Shown here: piece after piece, positions 1,273 to 15,737 of the stretch
Layout of the letters: each line of letters opens with the position of its first letter
Numbering within the stretch: position 1 is the first letter of the stretch
Source of the DNA: an uncultured Planctomycetota bacterium
GTDB taxonomy: Bacteria > Planctomycetota > Planctomycetia > Isosphaerales > Isosphaeraceae
Assembly (NCBI GenBank): GCA_963845755.1
Contig: CAWJTV010000005.1
Location: 192,001-256,000, forward strand
DNA: 64,000 nucleotides
Direction: 5' to 3'
Program-made: the position numbers and the translations under genes
The notes under the pieces: model-generated
What the model saw: the letters and a program-made list of their open reading frames with translations, nothing else
Told to the model about the DNA's origin: nothing
The model's database searches: none

Positions 1273-3324
1273 CTAACGACGTCGCCCGGACCTGGTCTTG
1301 GCACGGGATCGGGCTCCCTCCGCCTGCGGGGTTGCGGCGGGACGTCGAGGACCGTCACCCTGGGACGAACGAAGCTCGAGGATCTTGTCCCGGAGGGCCG
1401 CGGCGCGTTCGAATTCTAGCTTTTCGGCCGCCTCGAGCATCTCGGCCTCGAGGGCGGTGAGGTACTCTTCGGTAGCGTCAGTGGCCTCGTCGCGGCCGGC
1501 GGCCTTGCGCACGATGGTCCTGGCCTGGATCTGCTCCTCGATGCCCCGACGGATCGCTTTCTTGATCGACTCGGGCGTGATGCCGTGCTCCTGGTTGTAG
1601 GCGAGTTGCAGGGTGCGCCGGCGGTTGGTCTCGTCGATGGTGCGCTGCATCGAGGCCGTGATCTTGTCGGCGTAAAGTACGACCTCGGCGTTGACGTGGC
1701 GGGCCGAGCGACCGATGGTCTGGATGAGCGAGGTCTCGCTGCGGAGGAAGCCCTCCTTGTCGGCGTCGAGGATACAAACCATCGACACCTCGGGCAGGTC
1801 GAGCCCCTCGCGCAGCAGGTTGACGCCCACGAGGGCATCGAAGGCCCCTTCGCGCAGCTCGCGGAGGATACTGACCCGCTCGAAGGCATCGAGCTCCGAG
1901 TGCAGCCACTTGCAGCGCAGGCCCTGCTCCTTGAGGTAGCGCGACAAATCCTCGGCCAGGCGTTTGGTGAGGGTCGTAATCAGGACCCGCTCGCTCCTGG
2001 CCGCTCGGGCCCTGATCTCGTTGAGGAGCGCCGGGACCTGCCCGCGCGCGGCTCCACGCGCACGATCGGGTTGACCAACCCCGTCGGCCGGATCACCTGC
2101 TCGACGACCTCGCCGCCGGACATCGCGACCTCGTAGTCGCCCGGCGTGGCCGAGACGTACAGCCGCCGCTCGAATTTCTTCTCCCACTCGTCGAACCGCA
2201 AGGGTCGGTTGTCCAGTGCACTGGGGAGCCGGAACCCGTGGTTCGACCAGCGTGCTCTTGCGGCTGAAGTCGCCGGCGAACATCCCCCGGATCTGTGGGA
2301 CGGTCACATGCGATTCGTCCAGGAAGATCAGGCTATCGGCGGGGAAGAAGTCGAGTAGCGTACTGGGGGTCTCACCCGGCTTGCGTCCCGAGAGGGGCCG
2401 GGAGTAATTCTCGATGCCCGAGCAATATCCGACCTCGAGGAGCATCTCCATGTCGTATCGGGTCCGAGCACCCAGTCGCTGGGCCTCCAGGAGTTTTCCT
2501 TGCTCCTTCAGTTCCTTGAGCCGCTGCTCCAGCTCCTCGTTGATGGCCTCCACGGCCCCCTTGATCCGCTCTTCGGGTAGGACGAAGTGCTTGGCCGGGT
2601 AGACGTACATCTCCTGGTGCGTCTCCAGGACGGAGCCGGAGACGGGCTCGATCGTCGCCAGCCGCTCGACCTCGTCGCCAAACAGCTCGATCCGGTAGCC
2701 GAACTCCTCATAAGCCGGCCAGAGCTCGACGACATCGCCGCGCACGCGGAATTTACCCCGTTCGAACGACACGTCATTCCGGTCGTACTGGATATCCACG
2801 AACTTCCGAAGCATCTCGTCGCGGTCGATCATATCTCCCAACTTAAGCCGAACCATCATCTTGCGGTAGTCGTCCGGCGAACCTAACCCGTAAATGCACG
2901 ACACGCTGGCCACGACAATCACATCGTCGCGACTGACCAGCGCGCTGGTGCAGGCCAGACGGAGGCGCTCGATCTCGTCGTTGATCGCGGCATCCTTCTC
3001 GATATAGATGTCGCGCTGAGGGATATACGCCTCGGGCTGGTAATAGTCGTAGTAGCTGACGAAGTATCGCACGGCGTTGTGCGGGAAGAAGTCCTTGAAT
3101 TCGGCATAGAGCTGGGCGGCCAGGGTCTTGTTGTGCGACATGACCAGCGCGGGACGCCCATACTGGGCGATCACGTTGGCCATGGTGAACGTCTTTCCAG
3201 AGCCGGTGACCCCCAATAGCGTTTGATTGGATCGCCCCTTGCTCAGTCCATCCACCAGGCTCTCGATCGCCTGAGGTTGATCGCCGGCCGGCGGGAACGG
3301 GCTCACAAGCTGGAATTTGGACAT
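1273..3324 (-). CDS. uvrB: Excinuclease ABC subunit B (two compensating frameshifts near 2240 and 2050)
   Basis: [57 protein letters not shown] and a C-terminal UVR domain. The missing conserved segment ([30 protein letters not shown]) lies in the alternative frame 1980..2201. Confidence 0.97.
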
Positions 3325-4569: not shown

Positions 4570-6660
4570 TCACACGATCGCCCAGAAGGGGCGCCCATCG
4601 GGGGTTCGCTTCGGGTGAAGTCGAATGCGCGATCGGGGATCGGTGTTCTGCCCCAGCAGGTGATACATGTCGTAGAGGACGCCGTGAGCCTCGGCGAAGT
4701 AACCGTGCCCGAGGATGGAGAGGTCCAACCCGGTGACCTCGACCGTATCGATGCCATCGACGACCGTGACCGGCGGGGCATACCCCACGCGATCGAACTG
4801 GTGAATCCAGTGCGAGGCTTCCAGGGCGCGGTCGCGAGCGGAGACATAGAGCGTTGTCCGCTCCGAAATCTTGGGATAGAGGGTTGCCAGGTCGCGGAAA
4901 AGGCCGACGTCGAGATCGGGAGCTGCGAGGAACATCTGGCCGAAGCGAATTCCCGCCGTTGAGGCTGCCTGGGCTGTGATCCGCTGGATCGCCCGCAATA
5001 GGCCGCGGTTGCCCATGCTGTGGGCGATCACGTGAAGGCGGGCCGCGCCGCTGTCGGTCGCGAGGTGGACGAGGAAATCAGTGATCGCGGCCTCGCTGGC
5101 CTCGATGCTGGCTTCATCGGAAGCATAGCCTTTGAGTGCGCCCCGCGACGGCCAACTGAAGAACGACATCGCGCCCGGGACTTTCAGGTCGAAGCCGATC
5201 TGGGCCGCGCGGATGGCTGCCTCGTCGAACGAGACGTTGTATCCGTGCAGATAGACAAGGACCTGCGGCTCATCAGCATCGTCCGGGGTCAGCTCGCGCC
5301 GGATGGCCTTCCAGAATGCGTCCCTGGCGATCTCATCCCGCTGGACGATGCGGAGCCGATCATCTTTCCAGATGAGCCAGCGCTTCCACCAGGCGGAGCC
5401 GACCGAACCGAACTGGTGCGACTTGGGGATCGCGACCAGACATTTCCCGTAATGAACGACGTTCTGACTCTCGCGATCGCCGGAATACCCCGCGGACGTA
5501 TCGGACGAATCGCGATAACTCCGATTGGTACCGTACCAGACCGGGTAGACGCGAGGGAGACTCGCATCGGCGCTGTATTTCGCGACGCTGGTTCCTCCGG
5601 CCTCAAGCCCTTTCGACGACCCGCCGCCACCCTTCTTGGGACGATGGCCACCCATCCCAACGAACTCCAAGCCCTCCGAGTCAATCTCACGGGTGATCTC
5701 ATTCCGATCGCCCAGGATGATGATGTTGCCGGAGACATCTCCGCCGGCGGCGAATGACCGTTCCCCGATGGCCTGGACGATCCGCCCGATGGTCACATGG
5801 GCTTGCTTTTCGTAGGCCGACCACCCACCCGCCGGGAGTCCCTTACCACCGCGGAGGAGCGCCACGGGGAAGTCCGTCGTGGCGTTGTAATCGAAGTGCG
5901 GCTCTTGCTCGGCGTTGCAAAGTTTCCGAGCACTCTCGGGCACGGCCTTGCCCAGGTAATTCATCAGGTCGGAGAGTTTGACGGTCGTTTCGCCCGGCCG
6001 ATTGTTGGCACCTTGCAGGGCCTCGATGAGGTGGTAGGTGTAGACGCTCATCGTCCCATCGGGCCGCACCCACGACTTTTGTTGGCCACCCGATGAGGTG
6101 AAGACGGCTCGCCCCGCGCCCTGTTTGAGCACATCAACCACCGCCTTGGGTGGGGGCGCCGGGACAAGATCCTTGGGGAACTTGATGGCGGCTTGACCCC
6201 CTTTGGCCGTGGCCATACCCTCGGCGTGGCAGCAATCCAGGATTGCCAGCAGCCGCTCTGCCTTGATCCGGCGCAGTAGCTTGATGAACTCCGGTGCCGG
6301 AATGGCCGAGCGGGGAACGTCGAGCGGATCGGCGTCATGAGGGATCAGGAAGTAGCGGCTGGTCCCCTTATTGAGCCAGCCATGGCCGGAAAAGTAGACG
6401 ACCGCGGTCGCGTGCGGGTCGGCGGCGACTTGCTGGGCCAGCCAGTCCAGTCCCTCAAGGATCGCGTCGCGAGTGGCCTGTCGATCGTGAAGCAGCCGCA
6501 CATGGTCTTCGGGATAGGCGCAGAGGCTCTGGTCGATGAGCACGGCCTGGATCGCCTGGGCGTCCTTCACGGTCACTGGGAGTGACCACTTATCGTACTG
6601 GGCCTGCCCGACGCCGATGAGCAGGGCGTATCCTTGATCGAAGGTCTCGGCCATGAACAC
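4570..6660 (-). CDS. Caspase-family (peptidase C14) domain + short shared motif + DUF900-type alpha/beta hydrolase fusion
   Basis: N-terminal YALLIGV, His in YFSGHG and Cys in ILDCCHA. C-terminal VWYGTNR, YLHGYN, FSWPS, nucleophile HVIAHSMG, LAAPD, GHGY. Intact 696-aa ORF; the start may be ATG 6654. Confidence 0.9.
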   Translation of the reverse strand: MFMAETFDQGYALLIGVGQAQYDKWSLPVTVKDAQAIQAVLIDQSLCAYPEDHVRLLHDRQATRDAILEGLDWLAQQVAADPHATAVVYFSGHGWLNKGTSRYFLIPHDADPLDVPRSAIPAPEFIKLLRRIKAERLLAILDCCHAEGMATAKGGQAAIKFPKDLVPAPPPKAVVDVLKQGAGRAVFTSSGGQQKSWVRPDGTMSVYTYHLIEALQGANNRPGETTVKLSDLMNYLGKAVPESARKLCNAEQEPHFDYNATTDFPVALLRGGKGLPAGGWSAYEKQAHVTIGRIVQAIGERSFAAGGDVSGNIIILGDRNEITREIDSEGLEFVGMGGHRPKKGGGGSSKGLEAGGTSVAKYSADASLPRVYPVWYGTNRSYRDSSDTSAGYSGDRESQNVVHYGKCLVAIPKSHQFGSVGSAWWKRWLIWKDDRLRIVQRDEIARDAFWKAIRRELTPDDADEPQVLVYLHGYNVSFDEAAIRAAQIGFDLKVPGAMSFFSWPSRGALKGYASDEASIEASEAAITDFLVHLATDSGAARLHVIAHSMGNRGLLRAIQRITAQAASTAGIRFGQMFLAAPDLDVGLFRDLATLYPKISERTTLYVSARDRALEASHWIHQFDRVGYAPPVTVVDGIDTVEVTGLDLSILGHGYFAEAHGVLYDMYHLLGQNTDPRSRIRLHPKRTPDGRPFWAIV

Positions 6661-6693
6661 CTCGCGATTGGGGTGGTTCGCTCCGTCCGTGGC

Positions 6694-9600
6694 TCACGGC
6701 CACCAGCGGCCGACTTCTTCGATTGCAGTACAGGTCTCGGCGATCGCTTCTGAACCGCCCAGGCGCGGGATCAGCGGCGCGAGCGACGCGAGGTCGGAAA
6801 GGAGGTCGCTGCGCGATCGCGTCGCGAGAAGTCGGAGCGTTTCTGACCAAAGTAGGGACAGCCGTGTGTGTGGCAGCGCCGCCAGCCGGGGTGCCACTGC
6901 CGTCAGGGCAGCAGCCCGGGACTCGTTGTGCTGAATATCCCGCGCCACCGCCGACGCCTCATCCACTCGACCCAGCGCCGCTAGTGTACGAGCCAGCACC
7001 CAGTCGTCGCCGATCCGCCTCGCGTTTGCCAGTGCGTCATCGGTCTGGCCCAACTCCGCCAGGCGGGGTAACAGCGCTGCCAGGGCGTGTACGCGGCCTA
7101 ACTCGTCGCCGGTGCTCCGTGCTATCGCCATCGCCGCCTCCACTTGACTCAGCTCCGTCAGGCGCGGCGCCACCGACGCCAAGGCGGCGACCCGGGCCCA
7201 CGGGTCGCCTGACTCTCGTGCGATCCCTAGCGCCTCATCCACTTCACCGATCGTAGCCAGGCCCTGGCCCGAGCCCACTCCCGCTCGATCCCCCGCGCCA
7301 GCAACAGTGCCTCCTCAAGCCGACCCACATCCGCCAATCGAGGCGCCAACTCCGCGAGAGCGAAGGCCCGGGCAGACTCATCGGCGACCCCATGCGCCAG
7401 ACTCAACGCTTGCTCGAACCGGCCCGCATCCGCCAGCCGGGCGCCAACTCTGCGAGGGCGAAAGCCCGGGCCGACTCGTCGCTGATCCCCCGGGCCAATG
7501 CCAACGCGTCATCGACCTGACCGAGCTCCCCAAGGGCGCGGGCCCGGGCCGACTCGTCGCCGATCCTCCGTGCCATCACGAGCGCATCATTGGTCCGACC
7601 CAACCTCGCCAGGTGGGGTGCAAACTTCGCCAGGACATTGTCGCGGGTTCGTTCGTCACCGATCCCCCGGACCACCGTGAGCGCCTCCTTCACCCGATCC
7701 GCATCCGCCAGGCGGGGCCAATGCTCCCAGGTCCCGGGCACGCTGCCACTCGTTTTTGATCTCCCGCACTGCTCGTATCGCTTCATCGACTCGGCCTGCG
7801 TCCGCCAGCCGGGCGCCAGGTTCGCTCGTGCAGCAGCCCGAGCCTGCACGGGTTCGATCTCCATCACTACTCCAATGCCCTATCCAACTGTCCGAGTTCC
7901 GCCAGGCGAGGCATCAGCGCCACAAGCGGCAAGGATTTGAGCGCCCATCGTCCTCGATCGTCGAGTGCCACCGCGAGCGACCGCCTGACCCGATCCGCAT
8001 CCGGCAGAAGGCGCCATCTTCACCAGGGCGAGGGCCCGGGACCCCTCGTTCGGATCTCCCGGGCCACCGCCAGCGCCTCATCCGCCTGACCAATCGCCGC
8101 CAGGCGCAGGCCCGAGCCCACTCAGGCCCGATTCCGGCGTAAGCGCCATCGCGACATCGACCCCGACCAGTGCCGCGAGTCGTGGCGCCAGCGCCGCCAG
8201 GGCACCGGCCCGGCACCCTTCGTCATCGATTCGCCGCGCCGCCGCCAGCGCCCGGTTCGACATGGGCGGGCTCCGCCAAGTGAGGAGCCATCTCCTCAAT
8301 AGCGATGGCCCGGGTGCTTTCGGCGGCGATTCCGCCTGCCACCGCCAGCCGCCTCATCCACGTGACCGAGCTTTGCCAAGGCGACGGCCCGCATCCTGCT
8401 CACCCCCGATTCTCCGCGCCGCCGCCAACGCCTTTTGCAGCACCGTCCGCCTCTCGTGGTGATCGTAGATGGGGGGTGATCCCGATGATGGCATCGACTC
8501 CTTCTTCCGGTGGCAAAGACCGGCGTAGGCAAGGCCCTGCGAAGCGGACCAGATCCCTTTCTCAACAAAGGCGGCGAGCAGGGCCGGAGGGATCTTCCGA
8601 GCCAGGCTATTGAGGGACGTGGACATCAAGGCATAACGAATCTCCAGTCCGATGCATGCCTTGTGCTGGCTCGGCTCGGCGCCCGGCCGATCGACGACTT
8701 GCACCAGTCGTGCGGCCCGATCAAGTCGTTCATGTACCCCGACGCGGGCTGGTCCAGACGTGCTCGCGGGACTGTGTACCAGACATTCTCAGTACGGACC
8801 GAACCACAGTCCTCGGCCCCGTCGACCCGCCTCTCTAGTCGGAGCAAGCGGTGGAGGTCGTCGAAGCGGCCGGCCCGTTCGAGGTGCTCGGCCATATGCC
8901 GCAGGCCGTAGCCATCGAGATCCACTCTTCTGCGGGGTCGAACAAGGCGGGAAGGCCCGCGTCCAGGCCACCCCAGGCGAGACAGGTAGAGGGTCGCGAC
9001 CCGATCGTGCGTCGCGCCGAGGTGGACCATGTCTTCCTCGTCCAAGAAATCGACAAACGACTGGTGAACGACGCGCCATCGCTTGCGGTCGGCCTCTGGC
9101 ATCATGGCTCAGGAATCGTCGCCATCGTCTCAGCGCCGCGTTCCTCGATCTCTGCGGGCGAGCGGTTGACCCACGAAGGCCAGCCAGGATGCCGACACCG
9201 CCTCGCGGGCCGCGGCCAGGAATGCGATCACGGGTTTATAGAGACTCTCCCACTCGGCCCAGCCCTCCTGGCCCCGCACCTGCTCCATCTGCTTCCAGAA
9301 CTGCTGATAGTAGCCCCGCAGGCCGAGCGGGAGTGACTCGAGGTCGAGCGGGTCGAAACCCGGCTCGCGCGCGGCGATGTCGGCCAGGACGTAGTCGAGA
9401 TACTTGAAATTGCCCTCGCTCTTGTCCTTCAGGAACGCAACGAATTGCTCGATCGAGATCGGCGGTTTCGCTGCCTCCCGCGCCTGGAGGATCTCAGGCT
9501 GGTCTGCCTCCTGGTTGAGATAGGCGACGAGATCCTCCTGCTGGGCGGCGTCGTCGGAGGTGATGAGGTAGTCCTCGTCGGCCGTGCCCGCATCGGTCGT

Positions 9601-10754
9601 GAGAGAGATCTCGCCGGGGCGATGGGTCAGGAGCATGTAGACGCCGCGCAGGGAGCCGAGTCGGGAGCAGCAGCGTGTTGCGGCCCGGCTCGAGGGGATC
9701 GGCCTCATCGAGGGCGTCAACGACGATCCAGACCGGCCCCTCTGCCTTGGCGGCGGCCTCGGAGAGCACCTTGCCCAGGAACGACGAGTCCTCGCCCGCG
9801 CGGGCCGGCAGGTGGTCGTGGGCCAGGCCGAAGCGGGCAATCAATTCAACGGCGAGGTGGTTGAGGCACTGGTCGGGACGGGTCAGGCCGCCGACTGGCA
9901 ATGGTGAAGAAGGCGGGCGCTTTCAGCCGCTTGGATGCTTCCGCGGCGATCGCCGTCTTGCCCAGGCCGGCGTCGGCCACGACCCGGAAATAACCGCAGG
10001 GATGCCGCTTGGCGAAGGCGTCCAGGCGTCGGAAAAGTTCAGCCCGGCCGACGAATCGCTCTGACACCTTCTTGATCAGGTCATCGAAGTCGATGGCATA
10101 GTCTTTGAGCGAAGGGTAGAGTTTGACGATGGTCTGGTAGACGTCGCCGATCTGAAAGACGTTATCCCGAGCATCGCCGCCGATCGCGAAAGCTCGTTCC
10201 CCGATGGCTTTCGCCACGTGGGCTGGAGAAGGAAGTTCTTCGATCTCGGTCCGAGCCATTTCCTCGGTCGCCCCCCCAGTGTCGTGCTCGGAAAGCCACT
10301 GGCCCAGATCGGTTGCGACCTTGGCTTGCAGATCATCGGGATCGCAAAAACGCGTGGCGTTGCCGCTCTGGATCAGCTCGGACGCAAGGCCGGATCGCGC
10401 TGCCGATGACTTGGACTTTCCCCTCCCGCGCTTGGCGGCCGTCTTTGGCTCATCCTTGACATAGATCAGACAGCGTAACTCGTGCTGATTCGCGCGGCGG
10501 TACTCCGGTTCGAAATGGATTGCGGACGCCTGACCGCCAAGGAAGCCGATGTAGAGCTGGCCCCGGGACGGTTCGAACGGCCTTGTGCCCGTCCCCTCAT
10601 CGTCGTCGAAGGCGACCCACTCCAATCCGGGGAAAGTCGTCTCGCGGAGCCGCATCAGGGTTCGCTCGACCGCCGCGCGCTCCGGCGCCAGTTTGGACGG
10701 CACGGAGCCGAGCACGATTCGGATGAGTCTCGGTCGGTCCGTTCCGGCTTCCAT
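6694..10754 (-). CDS. STAND/NLR-like NTPase: degenerate DUF4062 - motif - NACHT/AAA NTPase - helical domain - C-terminal TPR-like repeats (about 1350 aa, multiply frameshifted)
   Basis: Joined frames 9846..10754, 9494..9901, 9130..9840, 8626..9105, 8789..9079, 8354..8704, 7403..7867, 6694..7278. FVGRAEL, Walker A ADAGLGKT, Walker B WIVVDALDE, SEGNFKYL, LPLGLRGYY, HQSFVDFL, YGLRHMAEHL, repeats DEALxxARxIGDxxxRxxALAxLAPRL, ends GRWWP. RBS GAAGGAG before ATG 10754. Confidence 0.82.
6760..8450 (-). repeat. Degenerate tandem TPR-like coding repeats in the NLR C-terminus
   Basis: Recurrent DNA blocks such as gcccgggccgactcgtcgc-gatc (about 7464 and 7541) and repeated peptide units AxxIGDESARA-AL-ELG-VD-AL. 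Confidence 0.7.
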
Positions 10755-11310: not shown

Positions 11311-11706
11311 CGGAGGCGATCCTCGGCCACCAGGAGAGCGCTGTCGCTTTGTGGCCGGCCCGCGAGGCTATGAAGGCTGGCCTCGGCGCGCTCGCGGGTT
11401 GCGATTGCCTCGCCGCGCCGCCTCGTCACGTCGTGCCGGTGCCGGAACCCATTCGAGGTTCGTCCGTTCGCAATTCAGACGGTTGCCGTCTTTGAATCGG
11501 ACGACATGGCCCGGTGGCCGTGGGCCGACCAACGCCTCCAGGACCAGCTCGGCCAGTAGCCGCGTCTGTGGTCGTCCTTGATCATGATAGAGGGAGATGA
11601 TCTTGTTGCCCTCGACGTCTACGATGGCCGGAACCTGAACCCACTCGTCCCGGCGATCAGAATCGTGTCCCGGTGGATCGGTCCTGTGCTGAGGCTGGGT
11701 GGACAT
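11307..11706 (-). CDS. HNH-like domain protein with antitoxin-like C-terminal tail (one frameshift near 11415)
   Basis: MSTQPQ...LVLEALVGPRPPGHVVRFKDGNRLNCERTNLEWV (phage-type HNH pattern). The shifted frame continues AIATRERAEASLHSLAGRPQSDSALLVAEDRLR* and overlaps the vapC start. Confidence 0.6.
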
Positions 11707-11890
11707 GCGAATGAACTCCGTACGTGGGGCAATCGTGCCACGCACCATGATGACGCCGGATCGGTCGGCTTGAAAGGCTGCCTCCAGGGGAAACGTCATG
11801 TCGCTTTCCCATCGCCTCCGGGTCAACAACCTATTAGAATCGTGGGGAAATGGTGCGAGAGCTAGGGCGATCCTCGGGGGGGCGACGCCG

Positions 11891-12462
11891 ATGAGCGAAG
11901 TGAGTGGACTCCTGGAGGCGATCGGCCGGGGTGAGCCGCAACGGGCGCGCGAGCTGTTGCCCATCGTTTATGAGGAGCTGCGAAAGCTCGCCGAGGCCAG
12001 GCTCGCCCGTGAGCCGACGGACAGACCCTCCAGGCGACCGCGCTGGTCCACGAGGCCTTCCTCCGGCTGGTCGGCGACGGGGACGGCCCGGCCTGGGAGA
12101 ATCGCGGCCACTTCTTCGCCGCCGCAGCCGAGGCGATGCGGCGCATCCTCGTCGAGAAGGCCCGGCATAAGCGTCGAAGACGCCATGGCGGCGGGCTCCA
12201 ACGTGTCAACCTCGACCAGGTCGCTCTCGGCGACGACGACGCGGCCGGCGATCTGCTGGCACTCCACGAGGCCCTCGATCAGCTCGCCGCCGAGGAGCCG
12301 GTCGCCGCCGAGGTCGTCAAGCTCCGCTATTTCGCCGGCCTGACCACCGAGCAGGCTGCCTCGGCCCTCGACATATCCCTGCGCACTGCCAACCGCCACT
12401 GGGCCTACGCCCGCGCCTGGCTCCACCAGCGTCTCAACTCTGCGGGCGACACGCCGGCTTGA
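11891..12462 (+). CDS. ECF sigma factor, planctomycete kinase-associated type (TIGR02999-like), frameshift near 12020
   Basis: MSEVSGLLEAIGRGE..LLPIVYEELRKLA joined to TLQATALVHEAFLRLV..NRGHFFAAAAEAMRRILVE..VVKLRYFAGLT..WAYARAWL. Confidence 0.9.
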
Positions 12463-13604: not shown

Positions 13605-15737
13605 GTGGCTCGCGATCAGCACAACGTGAAACTGATCTTCGACGAGGCCGCCGAGATCGCCTCGCCCGAGGGCCGCGCCGCCTACCTCGAGGGTGCCTGC
13701 GGCGGCGACGCCGACCTCCGCAAGAAGGTCGAGGCCCTGCTCCTGGCCCTCGATGAAGCCGGCAGTTTCCTGGAGGCATTCCCGGACCTCGACACGACGG
13801 GGGCGGCGGATACCCCCACTCCTCGCGCGGGGCCTGGAGCCTCTCCAGAGCCGATTTCCACGGGCTCGGGATCGGCGGTCGCCGATTCGTCCGGGGCGAC
13901 CGTATCTCTGACCTTGCCGCCGCTGTCCGAGGGTCCGGGGACGACGATCGGTCCGTACAAGCTTGTCCAATTGATCGGCGAGGGCGGCATGGGCGCCGTC
14001 TTCATGGCCGAGCAGGAGAAGCCGGTCCGGCGCCAGGTGGCGCTGAAGGTCATCAAGCCCGGCATGGACACGCGTCAGGTCGTCGCCCGGTTCAAGGCCA
14101 AGCGCCAGGCCCTGGCCATGATGGACCACCCCAACATCGCCCGCGTCCTCGACGGGGGGACGACGAAGTCGGGGCGTCTCTTCTTCGTCATGGAGCTGGT
14201 CAAGGGGACCCCAATCACCACTTTCTGCGACGAGCGCCGGCTCAGCCTGCGTCAACGATTGGAGCTGTTCGTCCCCGTCTGCCAGGCGATCCAGCACGCG
14301 CACCAGAAGGGGATCATCCACTGCGACATCAAGCCGTCGAACGTCCTGATCGCCCTCTACGACGATCGCGCCGTGCCCAAGGTCATCGACTTCGGCATCG
14401 CCAAGGCCACCGGGTCACAGCTCACCGAGCAGACGCTGATGACCGGCCTCGGCGCCGTGGTCGGGACGCCCGAATACATGAGCCCCGAGCAGGCGAGCCT
14501 CAACAACCTGGACATCGACACGCGAAGCGACATCTATGCGCTGGGCGTGCTCCTCTACGAGCTGCTGACCGGCACCACGCCGGTGGACCAAGCCGATCCC
14601 TTGAACTTGACGTCCATGAGCACGAGCCACTACGACCTGCTGACCGGCACCACGCTCGCGGATAGCCGGAGCCTGGACCGCGCCGCGGTGCTGGAGGTCC
14701 TGCGGATCGTCCGTGAGGTCGAGCCGCCGCGCCCGAGCACGCGGCTGAGCTCGCTCGAGACGCTGCCGAGCATCGCCGCCCACCGCGGCACGGAGCCGGC
14801 GCGACTGGCCGGCCTGCTACGGGGCGAGCTGGACTGGATCGTCATGAAGGCCCTGGAGAAGGACCGGTCGCAGCGATACGAGACGGCCAACGCGCTGGTG
14901 CGCGACGTCCAGCGCTACCTGGCCGACGAGGTGGTCGAAGCGCGGCCGCCGTCGGCCGGCTACCGGCTGCGGAAGTTCGTGCGGCGGCACAAGGGCCGGG
15001 TGGTTGCGTCGGCCCTGGTGCTGCTGGCCCTGGTGGCGGGAATCATCGGCACGAGCTGGGGCCTCGTCCGGGCGAAGGCGGCCAACGCGCGAGCGCAACG
15101 GCGGCTGGAGCAGATCGGGAAGGGCAACGAGATCCTCGCGGGCATCTTCGCCGACCTGGATATGGACGAGGTGAAGCAGGGAGACAAGCCGTTGGAGGCG
15201 ATCCTCGCCGATCGGCTGGTGAAGGCCGCTGGCCAGTTGGAGGGAGGATCGGTGGGCGACCCGCTGGCCGTGGCGGCCCTTCAGGGCCGGCTAGGGGCAT
15301 CGCTGCGGAGCCTGGGCTTCGCGGCCGAGGCGATCCCGCCGCTGGAGAAGGCCCGGACCACCCGGCAGGCGGAGTTGGGCCCCGACCATCCCGATACCCT
15401 CGACACCCTGCTCCATCTGGCGGGGGCCTACTTCTACGCCGGCCGGCTGAACGACGCCCTGCCCCTGGCTGAGGAACACCTTCGGCTGGCGAGGGCCAGG
15501 CTCGGGCCCGAAAGCATAGAAACGATCGATAGCATGAATCATCTCGGATTCTATTACCGGTCCGTCGGGAATCTGGACCGGGCCATCTCGCTACTCGAGG
15601 AGGCGGTGAGGCTGGCGAGGTCCGCGCTCGGGCCGACCCATCGCCTGACGATCGCCGCAGTGAACAACCTGGCGCTGTGCTACAAGACCGCCGGCCGGAG
15701 GGACGACGCTCTGCCCCTGATCGAAGAGGCCCATTGA
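13605..15737 (+). CDS. Hanks-type Ser/Thr protein kinase with TM helix and TPR repeats (atypical catalytic motifs, possibly truncated)
   Basis: IGEGGMGAV, VALKVIKPG, HCDIKPSN, DFGIAK, GTPEYMSPEQ, DIYALG, TM VVASALVLLALVAGIIG, TPRs LGPDHPDT. Ends mid-TPR. Confidence 0.9.
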   Translation: MARDQHNVKLIFDEAAEIASPEGRAAYLEGACGGDADLRKKVEALLLALDEAGSFLEAFPDLDTTGAADTPTPRAGPGASPEPISTGSGSAVADSSGATVSLTLPPLSEGPGTTIGPYKLVQLIGEGGMGAVFMAEQEKPVRRQVALKVIKPGMDTRQVVARFKAKRQALAMMDHPNIARVLDGGTTKSGRLFFVMELVKGTPITTFCDERRLSLRQRLELFVPVCQAIQHAHQKGIIHCDIKPSNVLIALYDDRAVPKVIDFGIAKATGSQLTEQTLMTGLGAVVGTPEYMSPEQASLNNLDIDTRSDIYALGVLLYELLTGTTPVDQADPLNLTSMSTSHYDLLTGTTLADSRSLDRAAVLEVLRIVREVEPPRPSTRLSSLETLPSIAAHRGTEPARLAGLLRGELDWIVMKALEKDRSQRYETANALVRDVQRYLADEVVEARPPSAGYRLRKFVRRHKGRVVASALVLLALVAGIIGTSWGLVRAKAANARAQRRLEQIGKGNEILAGIFADLDMDEVKQGDKPLEAILADRLVKAAGQLEGGSVGDPLAVAALQGRLGASLRSLGFAAEAIPPLEKARTTRQAELGPDHPDTLDTLLHLAGAYFYAGRLNDALPLAEEHLRLARARLGPESIETIDSMNHLGFYYRSVGNLDRAISLLEEAVRLARSALGPTHRLTIAAVNNLALCYKTAGRRDDALPLIEEAH

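What the first reader, a model, noticed from the sequence alone, without database searches (positions are those of the whole stretch)
4570..10754. NLR-like sensor and caspase-hydrolase effector share a 22-aa amyloid-like motif: candidate prion-type immune or cell-death system
Seen: two co-oriented adjacent genes, 33 nt apart. The NTPase carries AIGERAFAIGGDARDNVFQIGD (10143-10208) directly before its P-loop domain. The effector carries AIGERSFAAGGDVSGNIIILGD (5707-5772) directly after its caspase domain. That is 13/22 identical residues, and the first 14 nt (GCCATCGGGGAACG) are identical. I saw no other similarity between the two proteins. The motif is Gly/beta-strand patterned and ends in FQIG-D / IILG-DRN, like the RHIM core (I/V)Q(I/V)G-x-x-N. 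Established: fungal NWD2/HET-S and bacterial BASS (Bell-domain/NLR) pairs use this layout, with the motif N-terminal to the NTPase and C-terminal to the effector, and signal by amyloid templating. Inference: ligand-induced NLR oligomerisation nucleates the motif, polymerises the caspase and activates it, as in an inflammasome. I do not know of a described planctomycete version with a caspase-motif-hydrolase effector and an internal motif.
Basis: partly seen in the sequence, partly recalled or inferred. Interest (0 to 1): 0.92.

Follow-up and report, generated by a model that had tools for sequence, protein, structure and literature searches.

The report
Sensor-caspase gene pair sharing amyloid motif
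Two neighbouring genes, a sensor ATPase and a caspase-plus-hydrolase enzyme, carry the same short glycine-rich peptide that belongs to an already described family of bacterial amyloid-type signalling motifs, so this is a new architectural example of a known immune or cell-death design, not a new principle.

Summary
The 22-residue motif sits at the stated coordinates in both genes (13 of 22 residues, first 14 nt identical). It occurs nowhere else in the 14.3 Mb genome.

It is not private to this locus. It follows the caspase domain in 60 of 76 caspase-bearing homologues. It precedes the P-loop in 10 of 19 NTPase homologues. Motif-bearing caspase and sensor genes lie side by side in Cyanobacteria, Chloroflexota and Planctomycetota.

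The motif matches the published BASS6 set. In cyanobacterial partners the same region is covered by Pfam EAD10. AlphaFold places it in disordered linkers of both proteins.

The best reading is sensor-to-effector coupling through homotypic, probably amyloid-like, stacking. That step is not shown for BASS6.

What appears new is the architecture: a motif internal to both proteins, a C14 caspase plus DUF900 hydrolase effector, a DUF4062-like sensor head, and a planctomycete host.

The RHIM likeness is not a family feature. The NTPase gene is split into nine frame segments. rpoB, rpoC, dnaE, carB and secA are also split, so assembly error cannot be told from decay.

Two earlier notes of this scan describe the same design on other genomes.

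The parts
6694..10754 (-). NLR-like sensor gene: DUF4062-like head, motif, STAND-type P-loop NTPase, alpha-solenoid repeats. It reads in nine frame segments with eight frame changes.
   Evidence: tblastn of intact homologues P0123 and P0128 maps frame changes near 9890, 9645, 8730, 8400, 8110, 7870, 7440 and 7260. Intact homologues of 1353-1510 aa end in the same ...VGRWWP.
10260..10754 (-). N-terminal alpha/beta domain of the sensor, DUF4062-like.
   Evidence: No Pfam hit of its own. It is 37% identical (E 5e-24) to the N-terminus of P0125, which carries DUF4062 at E 1.5e-15. AF2 gives a confident three-layer alpha/beta fold for residues 10-158. Foldseek gives only weak generic flavodoxin/TIR-like matches.
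10143..10208 (-). Sensor-side copy of the motif (AIGERAFAIGGDARDNVFQIGD).
   Evidence: It lies in a stretch (163-203) with pLDDT below 50.
9954..9977 (-). Walker A (ADAGLGKT).
   Evidence: These columns are invariant in the 17-sequence alignment A6.
9701..9727 (-). Walker B (IVVDALDEA), in the second frame segment.
6697..8400 (-). C-terminal alpha-solenoid repeats, units of about 35 aa of the ARALAxLAPRLA type.
   Evidence: Internal tblastn matches. The profile of the family hits designed PPR and TPR proteins (E 2e-28 to 1e-6). No DNA-level tandem repeat was found.
4570..6660 (-). Effector gene, intact, 696 aa. The likely start is the ATG at 6654.
   Evidence: Seven full-length orthologues at 70-79% identity.
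5872..6633 (-). Caspase domain (Peptidase_C14) with His93 in SGHGW and Cys in DCCHAEG.
   Evidence: Pfam E 3.9e-19, above its cut-off. The dyad columns are invariant in alignment A1. Coordinates.
5707..5772 (-). Effector-side copy of the motif (AIGERSFAAGGDVSGNIIILGD).
   Evidence: It lies in a segment (300-365) with pLDDT 26-34.
5602..5646 (-). Conserved basic patch (HRPKKGGGGSSKGLE) in the otherwise variable linker. It is a candidate autoprocessing site (inference).
   Evidence: The patch is kept in the seven close orthologues printed. Coordinates.
4573..5565 (-). DUF900 alpha/beta-hydrolase domain with AHSMGN, AAPDLD and LGHGYF motifs.
   Evidence: Pfam E 1.7e-44. These motifs are kept in the consensus of alignment A2. 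AF2 is confident for 366-696.

Best explanation
The two genes form a two-component sensor/effector module of the NLR-associated amyloid-signalling kind.

The sensor has a DUF4062-like head, the motif, a STAND-type NTPase and alpha-solenoid repeats. The effector has a caspase, the motif and a DUF900 hydrolase. Each carries one copy of a roughly 25-residue Gly/Asn/Val/Ile-rich motif of the BASS6 family, which overlaps Pfam EAD10, in an otherwise disordered linker.

Inferred mechanism: a trigger bound by the repeats makes the NTPase oligomerise. That brings several sensor-side motifs together into a beta-stacked nucleus. The nucleus templates the effector-side motifs. The caspase domains are thereby concentrated and switched on by proximity. 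The caspase may then cut the conserved basic linker and free the hydrolase. The outcome would be cell death or defence.

Shown here: the motif pair is real, family-wide, genomically paired, and lies outside the folded domains.

Not shown: amyloid formation, activation, the cleavage, the trigger, and whether the sensor gene is intact in the living organism.
For: (1) Within the genome the motif is unique to the two adjacent genes.

(2) It is a conserved module. It follows the caspase in 60 of 76 caspase-bearing proteins among the 120 best homologues. There it is joined to DUF900, TIR, TCAD2, KTSC or NTPase parts. It ends about 51-55 residues before GLGKT in 10 of 19 NTPase homologues. In six of those it sits at the very N-terminus.

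(3) Genomic pairing. 27 of 79 genome loci have a motif-bearing caspase, and 17 of those 27 have a further motif-bearing ORF within 10 kb. In 15 of the 17 that ORF is a large sensor-type ORF with the motif near its N-terminus. None of the 52 loci whose caspase lacks the motif has any motif hit. In an independent metagenome set, 7 of 55 loci have such a caspase and 5 of those 7 have a downstream partner.

(4) The two sides are one family: hhalign probability 98.7%, E 2.5e-16.

(5) Identity with a described amyloid-signalling family. The published Bell-side set C09 holds sequences nearly identical to motif copies in my loci. That archive's README maps C09 to BASS6.

(6) Composition matches the bias reported for BASS and fungal motifs, apart from Q, which that paper reports as enriched but is depleted here (0.54x). 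G is enriched 2.1x, N 2.9x, V 1.9x and I 2.2x. K is at 0.2x, P at 0.12x and L at 0.10x.

(7) The motif is disordered in monomer models of both proteins and lies between confident domains.

(8) Pair-specific signal. The Phe at motif column 12 occurs in 2 of 69 instances, and those two are the window's own pair. The window's effector motif is closest to its own sensor among 21 loci.

(9) A related motif, BASS11 in E. coli Bab/Agp, is reported to form amyloid and to run an abortive-infection defence (abstract and section 4 read).
Against: No amyloid or binding evidence exists for BASS6. The preprint tested only BASS1 and BASS3.

The motif is internal in both proteins here, not terminal as in the defining pairs. 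The sensor already has an N-terminal domain of its own.

Fused caspase-motif-NTPase proteins exist (P0040, P0043, P0045). So the motif also persists where no recruitment in trans is needed.

Pair-specific co-variation across loci is weak. Mean within-locus identity is 0.48 against 0.447 when partners are shuffled. 130 of 5000 shuffles reach the observed value. The own partner ranks first in only 5 of 21 loci.

Pfam EAD10 does not hit either window protein at E up to 0.1.

The sensor gene has eight frame changes in 4.06 kb. Five housekeeping genes have six in about 17 kb, and the effector has none in 2.09 kb. The sensor may therefore be decaying.

10 of 27 motif-caspase loci show no partner in the DNA held, and at least three of those are short contigs.
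Confidence: 0.6

Rival explanations
1. Non-amyloid adaptor. The motif, with the helix before it, is a small alpha+beta coupling domain (EAD10 in the sense of Kaur et al.). It forms a discrete, stoichiometric homotypic complex between sensor and effector, with no templating and no open-ended polymer.
For: Pfam EAD10 covers the N-terminal region including the motif in 6 of 13 partner proteins, 4 of them above the curated cut-off. Kaur et al. 2020 describe EAD10 as having mixed alpha+beta character and as a homotypic coupling adaptor (passages read). The constant spacing to the P-loop and the survival of the motif in fused caspase-motif-NTPase proteins fit a structural collar. Internal amyloid-like motifs have been proposed as scaffolds of NLR oligomers in fungi (passage read).
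Against: The conserved core is only about 25 residues, with the G/N/V/I-rich and K/P/L-poor make-up of amyloid signalling motifs. It is disordered in both monomer models. The same sequences were classed as BASS6 by the group that showed amyloid behaviour for BASS1, BASS3 and BASS11.
Confidence: 0.22
2. Decaying locus. The family-level mechanism holds, but in this organism the sensor is a true pseudogene. The module is then dead, or the effector is orphaned.
For: There are eight frame changes in 4.06 kb of the sensor. The adjacent effector has none in 2.09 kb, and five housekeeping genes have six in about 17 kb. Two of the changes inspected are single-base insertions outside homopolymer runs.
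Against: rpoB, rpoC, dnaE, carB and secA are all split across frames, so the assembly itself carries indel errors. The related Planctomycetota MAG loci L001 and L002 show the same kind of breaks, in L002 also in the effector. Between the breaks the sensor keeps 57-88% identity to intact homologues with no large deletions. Walker A, Walker B and the C-terminal ...VGRWWP are kept.
Confidence: 0.25
3. Shared protease site. The motif is a recognition or cleavage site for the Arg/Lys-specific caspase. The enzyme would process itself and the sensor at GER|S or GDR|N.
For: An Arg is frequent at motif column 10 (53 of 69 instances). Kaur et al. propose autoproteolytic effector release for caspase-bearing systems (passage read).
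Against: The best-kept columns are Gly (58 to 68 of 69), alternating hydrophobics, Asp and Asn, not the basic residues. Column 28 is H, G, N, R or Q. The motif also occurs in clusters on proteins without any protease domain, and on Bell-like, KTSC and membrane proteins.
Confidence: 0.04
4. Chance or low-complexity resemblance with no function.
For: The motif is short and rich in Gly.
Against: It occurs in only two places in 23.1 million residues of six-frame ORFs, and those two are adjacent genes. It is conserved across three phyla in the same two positions. The profile-profile E-value is 2.5e-16.
Confidence: 0.01

Closest known systems
BASS6, one of ten families of bacterial amyloid signalling sequences in Bell-domain/NLR gene pairs (Dyrka et al. 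2020 preprint 10.1101/2020.01.06.895854; sequence sets in the supplement of PMC8086366)
   Same: The motif sequence family is the same. Published C09 (= BASS6) entries are nearly identical to motif copies in my loci. The logic is the same: one copy before the NTPase of an NLR-like protein and one copy on an effector encoded next to it. [quoted passage not shown]
   Different: Here the motif is internal in both proteins. The effector is a Peptidase_C14 caspase plus a DUF900 hydrolase, with no Bell domain. The sensor carries a DUF4062-like head. The host is probably a planctomycete, and the word does not occur in that preprint. BASS6 itself was not among the motifs tested for fibrils. I could not see their Fig. 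S5 or Table S2, because bioRxiv supplements are closed.
EAD10 (Pfam PF19954), an effector-associated domain of the NTP-dependent conflict systems of Kaur, Burroughs, Iyer and Aravind 2020 (PMC7159879)
   Same: The proposed role is the same: one copy on a core component (STAND NTPase, VMAP, TGP), another on an effector encoded nearby, coupled by homotypic contact. The Pfam model covers the motif region in cyanobacterial partners of motif-bearing caspases.
   Different: The Pfam model does not reach either window protein. The authors describe a mixed alpha+beta adaptor domain and do not mention amyloid (0 occurrences).
Bab/Agp of E. coli with BASS11 (Ibarlosa et al. 2024 preprint 10.1101/2024.11.07.622273)
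   Same: It is an adjacent gene pair sharing a short motif. Amyloid fibrils, transmissible foci and abortive infection against phage T5 are reported (abstract and section 4 read). Nostocales clusters that hold my motif also hold an Agp-like TPR-GreAB-C-PIN protein and a small helical Bell-like protein, both with the motif.
   Different: Its sensor is a TGP protein, not an NTPase. Its effector is a pore-forming-type helical domain, not an enzyme. Whether BASS11 and BASS6 are related was not tested, because I had no Bab or Agp sequence (one search found none in the phage collection).
NWD2/HET-S and other fungal NLR/effector amyloid pairs, including SesB alpha/beta-hydrolase effectors
   Same: The two-gene layout is the same, with one rung-sized motif on the NLR. 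Effectors can be enzymes, and all-in-one fused forms coexist with split forms (as described in the introduction of the Dyrka preprint).
   Different: The motif sequence, the kingdom and the effector are all different. HET-S has two pseudorepeats, whereas the window effector has one copy.
Animal inflammasome (NLR-ASC-caspase-1) and RHIM necrosome
   Same: The analogy is an NLR-type sensor that nucleates a polymer which concentrates and activates a caspase or kinase.
   Different: Inflammasomes use Death-fold filaments, not beta motifs. The RHIM core (I/V)Q(I/V)G is not kept in this family.

Membership tests
BASS6 amyloid signalling motif (Dyrka et al.) | Sequence belongs to the family's motif set | tested here: met
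   The published C09 (= BASS6) Bell-side entries include near-identical copies of motif instances in loci L015 and L057, and close matches to the consensus of my 69 instances. The comparison was by eye against the printed set. I did not score the window motif with the authors' HMM.
BASS6 amyloid signalling motif (Dyrka et al.) | Matching copies in an NLR-like protein and in a protein encoded by the adjacent gene | tested here: met
   The genes are adjacent and co-oriented, 33-39 nt apart. The same pairing is seen in 15 genome loci and 5 metagenome loci.
BASS6 amyloid signalling motif (Dyrka et al.) | Motif at the N-terminus of the NLR and at the C-terminus of the effector | tested here: not met
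   In the window it lies at residues 183-204 of the sensor, after a 160-residue domain. In the 696-residue effector it lies at residues 297-318, before a 330-residue hydrolase. Terminal versions do exist in relatives, such as P0127-P0132 and L080-L085.
BASS6 amyloid signalling motif (Dyrka et al.) | Forms cross-beta fibrils, behaves as a prion-forming domain, and the NLR side seeds the effector side | not testable with these tools
   This needs peptides or fusion proteins. The preprint reports such tests only for BASS1 and BASS3.
EAD10 (Pfam PF19954) | Match to the Pfam model at its curated cut-off | tested here: not met
   No EAD10 hit for either window protein at E up to 0.1. Among 13 partner proteins from other loci there are 6 hits, 4 of them above 24.1 bits.
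NLR-like STAND NTPase | Walker A and Walker B motifs followed by C-terminal repeats | tested here: met
   ADAGLGKT and IVVDALDEA are present. The alpha-solenoid repeats match PPR/TPR proteins.
NLR-like STAND NTPase | Match to NACHT or NB-ARC at Pfam's curated cut-off | tested here: not met
   Only sub-threshold hits were found. The window pieces hit AAA_16 at 18.8 bits and NPHP3_N at 17.1 bits. Intact homologues hit NACHT at 17-23 bits against a cut-off of 26.7. No solved STAND protein was found by sequence.
Peptidase_C14 caspase | Pfam match above cut-off and a His/Cys dyad | tested here: met
   69.7 bits against a cut-off of 21.4. SGHGW and DCCHAEG are invariant in alignment A1.
DUF900 alpha/beta hydrolase (PF05990) | Pfam match above cut-off, nucleophile elbow and acid/His motifs | tested here: met
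   152.5 bits against a cut-off of 20.5. AHSMGN, AAPDLD and LGHGYF are kept in the consensus of A2. Assigning them as the catalytic triad is inference.
RHIM / BASS3 / PP motif | Core G-phi-Q-phi-G or (I/V)Q(I/V)G | tested here: not met
   At the corresponding motif columns 23-27 the 69 instances read I, V/I, T, G, D. Q appears at column 25 in 4 of 69. Only the window's sensor copy reads FQIG.
DUF4062 (PF13271) | Pfam match for the sensor's N-terminal domain | tested here: inconclusive
   The window domain has no hit. It aligns at 37% identity, E 5e-24, with the DUF4062 domain of P0125. The S-T-W-x-D stretch of P0125 reads G-S-V-P-S-K in the window.

The most novel reading that the evidence does not exclude
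A bacterial inflammasome-like device in which one amyloid-type rung sits between two enzymes. Sensor oligomerisation templates the BASS6 rung. That switches on the caspase by proximity. The caspase then cuts the conserved basic linker and frees a DUF900 lipase-like hydrolase, so one templating event fires two different killing activities. More widely, BASS6/EAD10 would be a common plug. In single clusters it would wire several kinds of sensor (STAND NTPases of NACHT, NB-ARC and other clades, Agp-like TGP proteins, VMAP proteins) to several kinds of effector (caspases, Bell-like helical proteins, KTSC proteins, membrane proteins).
Probability: 0.3. Interest if true: 0.75.

Novelty: new variant of a known kind. 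Interest (0 to 1): 0.5.

Why it matters
Amyloid-type signalling from NLR-like sensors is established in fungi. It has recently been reported for one E. coli antiphage system. In every experimental case read here the effector is a membrane-targeting helical domain.

This family would show whether the same templating can switch on an enzyme, namely a caspase. That is the logic of animal inflammasomes, reached by a different polymer.

The survey also links two literatures. They describe the same peptide under two names, BASS6 and EAD10. It shows the motif is the standard tail of a large caspase subfamily in Cyanobacteria, Chloroflexota and Planctomycetota.

The window's own locus is a poor experimental starting point because the assembly is error-laden. 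Intact pairs in cultured cyanobacteria (for example L016, L008, L014) offer the same test.

Tried and rejected
Complex prediction on the two motif segments with their alignments (A4 + A3) gave no answer, ipSAE 0.02 in both runs. This is evidence neither way.

The look-up of sequencing runs listed no run for 4570-10754. So the frame changes could not be checked against reads, and read laying was not used.

The metagenome scan with the effector did not return the contigs of the closest orthologues (P0004/P0123, P0008/P0124). Their adjacency is inferred only from equal contig lengths. The same holds for P0006/P0129.

The phylum scan of 401 genomes (400 sampled plus the window's own) found only DUF900-part matches and a few caspase-part matches. 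No second full caspase-motif-DUF900 protein was found among those searched.

tblastn of the Agp-like protein of L016 against the phage collection found nothing. BASS11 could therefore not be compared with this motif.

Tandem Repeats Finder found no DNA-level repeat in the sensor's repeat region.

Foldseek of the sensor's N-terminal model gave only weak, generic three-layer alpha/beta matches, with TIR domains among them (E 2e-4 to 1e-2, TM 0.2-0.3). No assignment was made.

PADLOC has no model for the pair beyond a generic caspase hit.

I considered the motif as a hexapeptide-repeat left-handed beta-helix fragment or as bactofilin-like. I dropped this because only one turn's worth of sequence is present and no Pfam repeat family hits it.

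I did not score the motif with the authors' BASS HMMs, ArchCandy or ASMscan, because none is available here.

Full report
THE OBSERVATION

On the minus strand an intact ORF, 4570..6660 (696 aa), encodes a Peptidase_C14 caspase domain (residues 10-263, E 3.9e-19) and a DUF900 alpha/beta-hydrolase domain (453-662, E 1.7e-44). Orthologues begin at the ATG at 6654. Upstream, 33-39 nt away, a gene starting at 10754 encodes a P-loop NTPase.

The effector copy is residues 297-318 (5707-5772). The NTPase copy is residues 183-204 (10143-10208). They share 13 of 22 residues and 43 of 66 nt, and their first 14 nt are identical. In BLASTP of the two proteins the motif is the only HSP below E 0.9 (E 1e-5; the next is E 0.91).

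A regex for the motif finds only these two places in the six frames of the 14.27 Mb genome. A 37-position HMM built solely from other genomes' copies finds only these two among 199,538 six-frame ORFs. Their E-values are 1.9e-10 and 4.3e-5, and the next best is E 1.3. The resemblance is therefore real.

STATE OF THE NTPASE GENE

The NTPase gene is not one ORF. Intact homologues of 1353-1510 aa (P0123, P0124, P0128, P0129) align to 6694..10754 through nine frame segments. That means eight frame changes in 4.06 kb. Two junctions I read are single-base insertions outside homopolymers.

This cannot simply be called a pseudogene. In the same assembly rpoB has 1 frame change, rpoC 2, dnaE 1, carB 1 and secA 1. 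All five are split across frames, giving six changes in about 17 kb. The related Planctomycetota MAG loci L001 and L002 show the same kind of breaks.

The density in the sensor is higher than this background, and the adjacent effector has none. Local decay, strain mixture at a variable locus, and poor consensus all remain open. No sequencing run was listed to settle it.

THE MOTIF IS A FAMILY FEATURE

830 proteins match the effector at E 1e-5 or better, and the best 120 are listed. Of these 120, 76 carry the caspase signature. Of those 76, 60 carry the motif about 200 residues after it, directly behind the caspase domain.

What follows the motif varies. It can be DUF900 (the window type, with seven orthologues at 70-79% identity), TIR/SEFIR, TCAD2, KTSC, a coiled coil, or a STAND NTPase fused in the same chain (P0040, P0043, P0045). 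No Pfam family covers the motif in those ten proteins at E 0.01.

On the other side, 10 of 19 NTPase homologues carry the motif, ending 51-55 residues before GLGKT. In six of them it is at the very N-terminus. In three it follows a DUF4062-type domain, as in the window. In one it follows a trypsin-like domain.

Alignments of the effector-side copies (24 sequences) and sensor-side copies (17 sequences) match each other at hhalign probability 98.7%, E 2.5e-16.

PAIRING IN OTHER GENOMES

A scan of one genome per species with a caspase-plus-motif alignment gave 79 loci from Planctomycetota, Chloroflexota and Cyanobacteria.

- 27 loci have a motif-bearing caspase.
- 17 of those 27 have at least one more motif-bearing ORF within the 10-kb flanks.
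- In 15 of the 17 that ORF is a large sensor-type protein with the motif near its N-terminus.
- In one (L005) the caspase itself is fused to the NTPase, and a KTSC protein carries the second copy.
- In one (L015) the extra copies sit on a second caspase and a small protein.
- None of the 52 loci whose caspase lacks the motif has a motif hit anywhere.
- Ten motif-caspase loci show no partner. At least three of them are contigs under 7 kb.

In a separate metagenome scan, 7 of 55 loci have such a caspase, and 5 of the 7 have a downstream ORF of 349-1538 codons (stop to stop; two of them run to the end of short contigs) that carries the motif, at or near its start in four of them. There the caspase ends right after its motif, which is the textbook layout.

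The partners are of several kinds: NB-ARC (L012), NACHT (L055), AAA_16/nSTAND5-like (L008, L014, L016), a TPR-GreAB-C-PIN protein (L016:11014-14670) and a VMAP-C protein (L024). The two Planctomycetota MAG loci keep the window's order, with the sensor first and the caspase second.

WHAT THE MOTIF IS CALLED

The supplement of Dyrka et al. 2021 (PMC8086366; file 1 searched) prints the Bell-side motif sets used to define the BASS families. Its cluster C09 holds entries nearly identical to copies in my loci. One is the C-terminus of the small helical protein of the Nostocales clusters. Another is the tail of the L015 caspase type. The archive's README maps C09 to BASS6.

The Dyrka et al. 2020 preprint was read in passages and section 9. 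It defines BASS motifs as roughly 25-residue motifs at NLR N-termini and at the C-termini of Bell-domain proteins encoded next door. [quoted passage not shown] It reports fibrils and prion behaviour for BASS1 and BASS3 only. 'Planctomycet' and 'Peptidase' do not occur in that text.

Independently, Pfam EAD10 (PF19954) covers the N-terminal region, including the motif, in 6 of 13 partner proteins, 4 of them above its cut-off. Kaur et al. 2020 (PMC7159879, passages read) describe EAD10 as a mixed alpha+beta adaptor that couples effectors to core components by homotypic contact. 'Amyloid' does not occur in that paper.

The same peptide thus has two published names and two proposed modes of action. 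Neither window protein reaches the EAD10 model.

STRUCTURE AND COMPOSITION

The AlphaFold2 model of the effector (46-row alignment) has confident caspase (1-296) and hydrolase (366-696) domains. Residues 300-365, covering the motif and linker, have pLDDT 26-34. The model of the sensor's first 302 residues has a confident alpha/beta head (10-158) and pLDDT below 50 for 163-203. So the motif is not part of a folded domain in either monomer.

The 69 aligned instances give this consensus: V-(Q/L)-A-(S/T)-G-(E/D)-R-(S/A)-V-A-(I/V/A)-G-G-(D/S/N)-(V/I/A)-x-x-(S/G)-x-I-(V/I)-T-G-D-x-N-x-V.

The core is enriched in G (2.1x), N (2.9x), V (1.9x) and I (2.2x). It is depleted in K (0.2x), P (0.12x) and L (0.10x) relative to the full proteins. 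Apart from Q, which that paper lists as enriched but is at 0.54x here, this is the bias Dyrka et al. report for BASS, for fungal motifs and for beta-helical proteins.

The RHIM-like reading of FQIG-D is peculiar to the window's sensor copy. The family reads I-(V/I)-T-G-D there, and the authors' RHIM-like family is BASS3.

PAIR SPECIFICITY

Across 21 loci, the mean identity of an effector motif to its own locus's sensor motif is 0.48, against 0.447 when partners are shuffled. 130 of 5000 shuffles reach the observed value. The own partner ranks first in 5 of 21 loci, and related loci are not independent. Co-variation is therefore weak overall.

The window is one of the five. Its two copies are the only 2 of 69 with Phe at motif column 12, where the others have V, I, A or N. 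They also share the identical 14-nt start. This suggests co-evolution or gene conversion within this pair.

MECHANISM

Shown: there is a sensor-type protein and an enzyme effector encoded side by side. Each has one copy of a conserved, disordered, beta-prone motif of a family classed with amyloid signalling sequences. The catalytic signatures of the caspase (His93; Cys in DCCHAEG) and the hydrolase (AHSMGN, AAPDLD, LGHGYF) are intact.

Inferred from the fungal NWD2/HET-S paradigm and from the Bab/Agp BASS11 system (abstract and section 4 read):

- Ligand-driven oligomerisation of the NTPase juxtaposes sensor-side motifs.
- These fold into a stacked beta nucleus.
- The nucleus recruits and templates effector-side motifs.
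- That concentrates the caspase domains and activates them.

A further inference concerns the linker. The patch HRPKKGGGGSSKGLE (5602-5646) is the only conserved part of the linker in seven orthologues. It could be the site where an Arg/Lys-specific caspase frees the hydrolase.

The main rival is a discrete, non-amyloid adaptor complex. It is favoured by the EAD10 description, by the fixed spacing to the P-loop, and by the persistence of the motif in fused caspase-motif-NTPase proteins. A complex prediction gave no answer, and nothing here discriminates the two.

NOVELTY

The principle, the motif family, and its association with caspase-fold, TIR and hydrolase effectors are all in print. I found three things not described in the texts I could read:

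- the Peptidase_C14 subfamily as a major carrier of BASS6;
- the sandwich architecture of caspase-motif-second enzyme, together with head domain-motif-NTPase;
- a planctomycete host.

The searches were made, plus in-paper word searches. The closed bioRxiv supplements (Fig. S5 and Table S2 of Dyrka et al.; extended data of Ibarlosa et al.) may already list such pairs.

Two earlier notes of this scan describe motif-coupled caspase modules on other genomes. I did not test them.

CONTEXT

uvrB lies downstream (1273-3324, minus strand). An ORF with an HNH_3 domain (11368-11964, minus) and a Ser/Thr kinase with TPR repeats (13605-15737, plus) lie upstream. Sulfatase genes follow. No recognised defence island surrounds the pair.

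Noticed in passing
G000 contigs C34:79366-83015, C34:567489-571586, C33:84022-87148, C11:563330-566394, C25:256019-259175: rpoB, rpoC, dnaE, carB and secA are each split across reading frames. The assembly (87.9% complete, 49 contigs) carries roughly one indel error per 3 kb in essential genes. Any 'broken gene' call in this genome needs caution.
   Followed up: partly
L016:5770-14670, L050:5949-14670, L052:2315-11398, L057:1225-8283: Nostocales clusters hold four co-oriented genes that all carry the motif. They are a small helical Bell-like protein (motif at its C-terminus), a STAND NTPase (N-terminal motif), the caspase, and a TPR-GreAB-C-PIN protein like E. coli Agp (N-terminal motif). That is two sensors and two effectors on one plug.
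   Followed up: partly
L014:5075-5878: An ORF with the motif near its N-terminus is followed by a long, very hydrophobic, probably multi-pass membrane region. It is a possible membrane effector of the same network. It has no Pfam hit.
   Followed up: no
L024:1258-2826 (minus strand): A VMAP-C protein (vWA-MoxR associated) carries the motif and is divergently oriented to the motif-bearing caspase. This links the motif to the ternary systems of Kaur et al.
   Followed up: no
Proteins P0041, P0048, P0018, P0017; loci L015:10817-10993, L005:8292-8468: A second conserved Gly/Asn-rich stretch (Q-x-G-K-Y-N-I-x-I-x-x-A-x-G-V-x-I-G-D) often follows the first motif. In some cyanobacterial caspase-DUF900 proteins it stands alone in its place. 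It may be a second rung or a different motif family.
   Followed up: no
window 5602-5646 (minus strand): The basic patch HRPKKGGGGSSKGLE is the only conserved part of the disordered linker between the motif and the hydrolase in seven orthologues. It is a candidate caspase autoprocessing site.
   Followed up: partly
window 10143-10208 and 5707-5772: Both copies have Phe at motif column 12, seen in no other of the 69 instances. They also share an identical 14-nt start, which hints at gene conversion or co-evolution within this pair.
   Followed up: yes
window 11368-11964 (minus strand) and 13605-15737 (plus strand): An ORF with an HNH_3 endonuclease domain and a Ser/Thr protein kinase fused to TPR repeats lie just upstream of the sensor gene. 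Any relation to the module is unknown.
   Followed up: no
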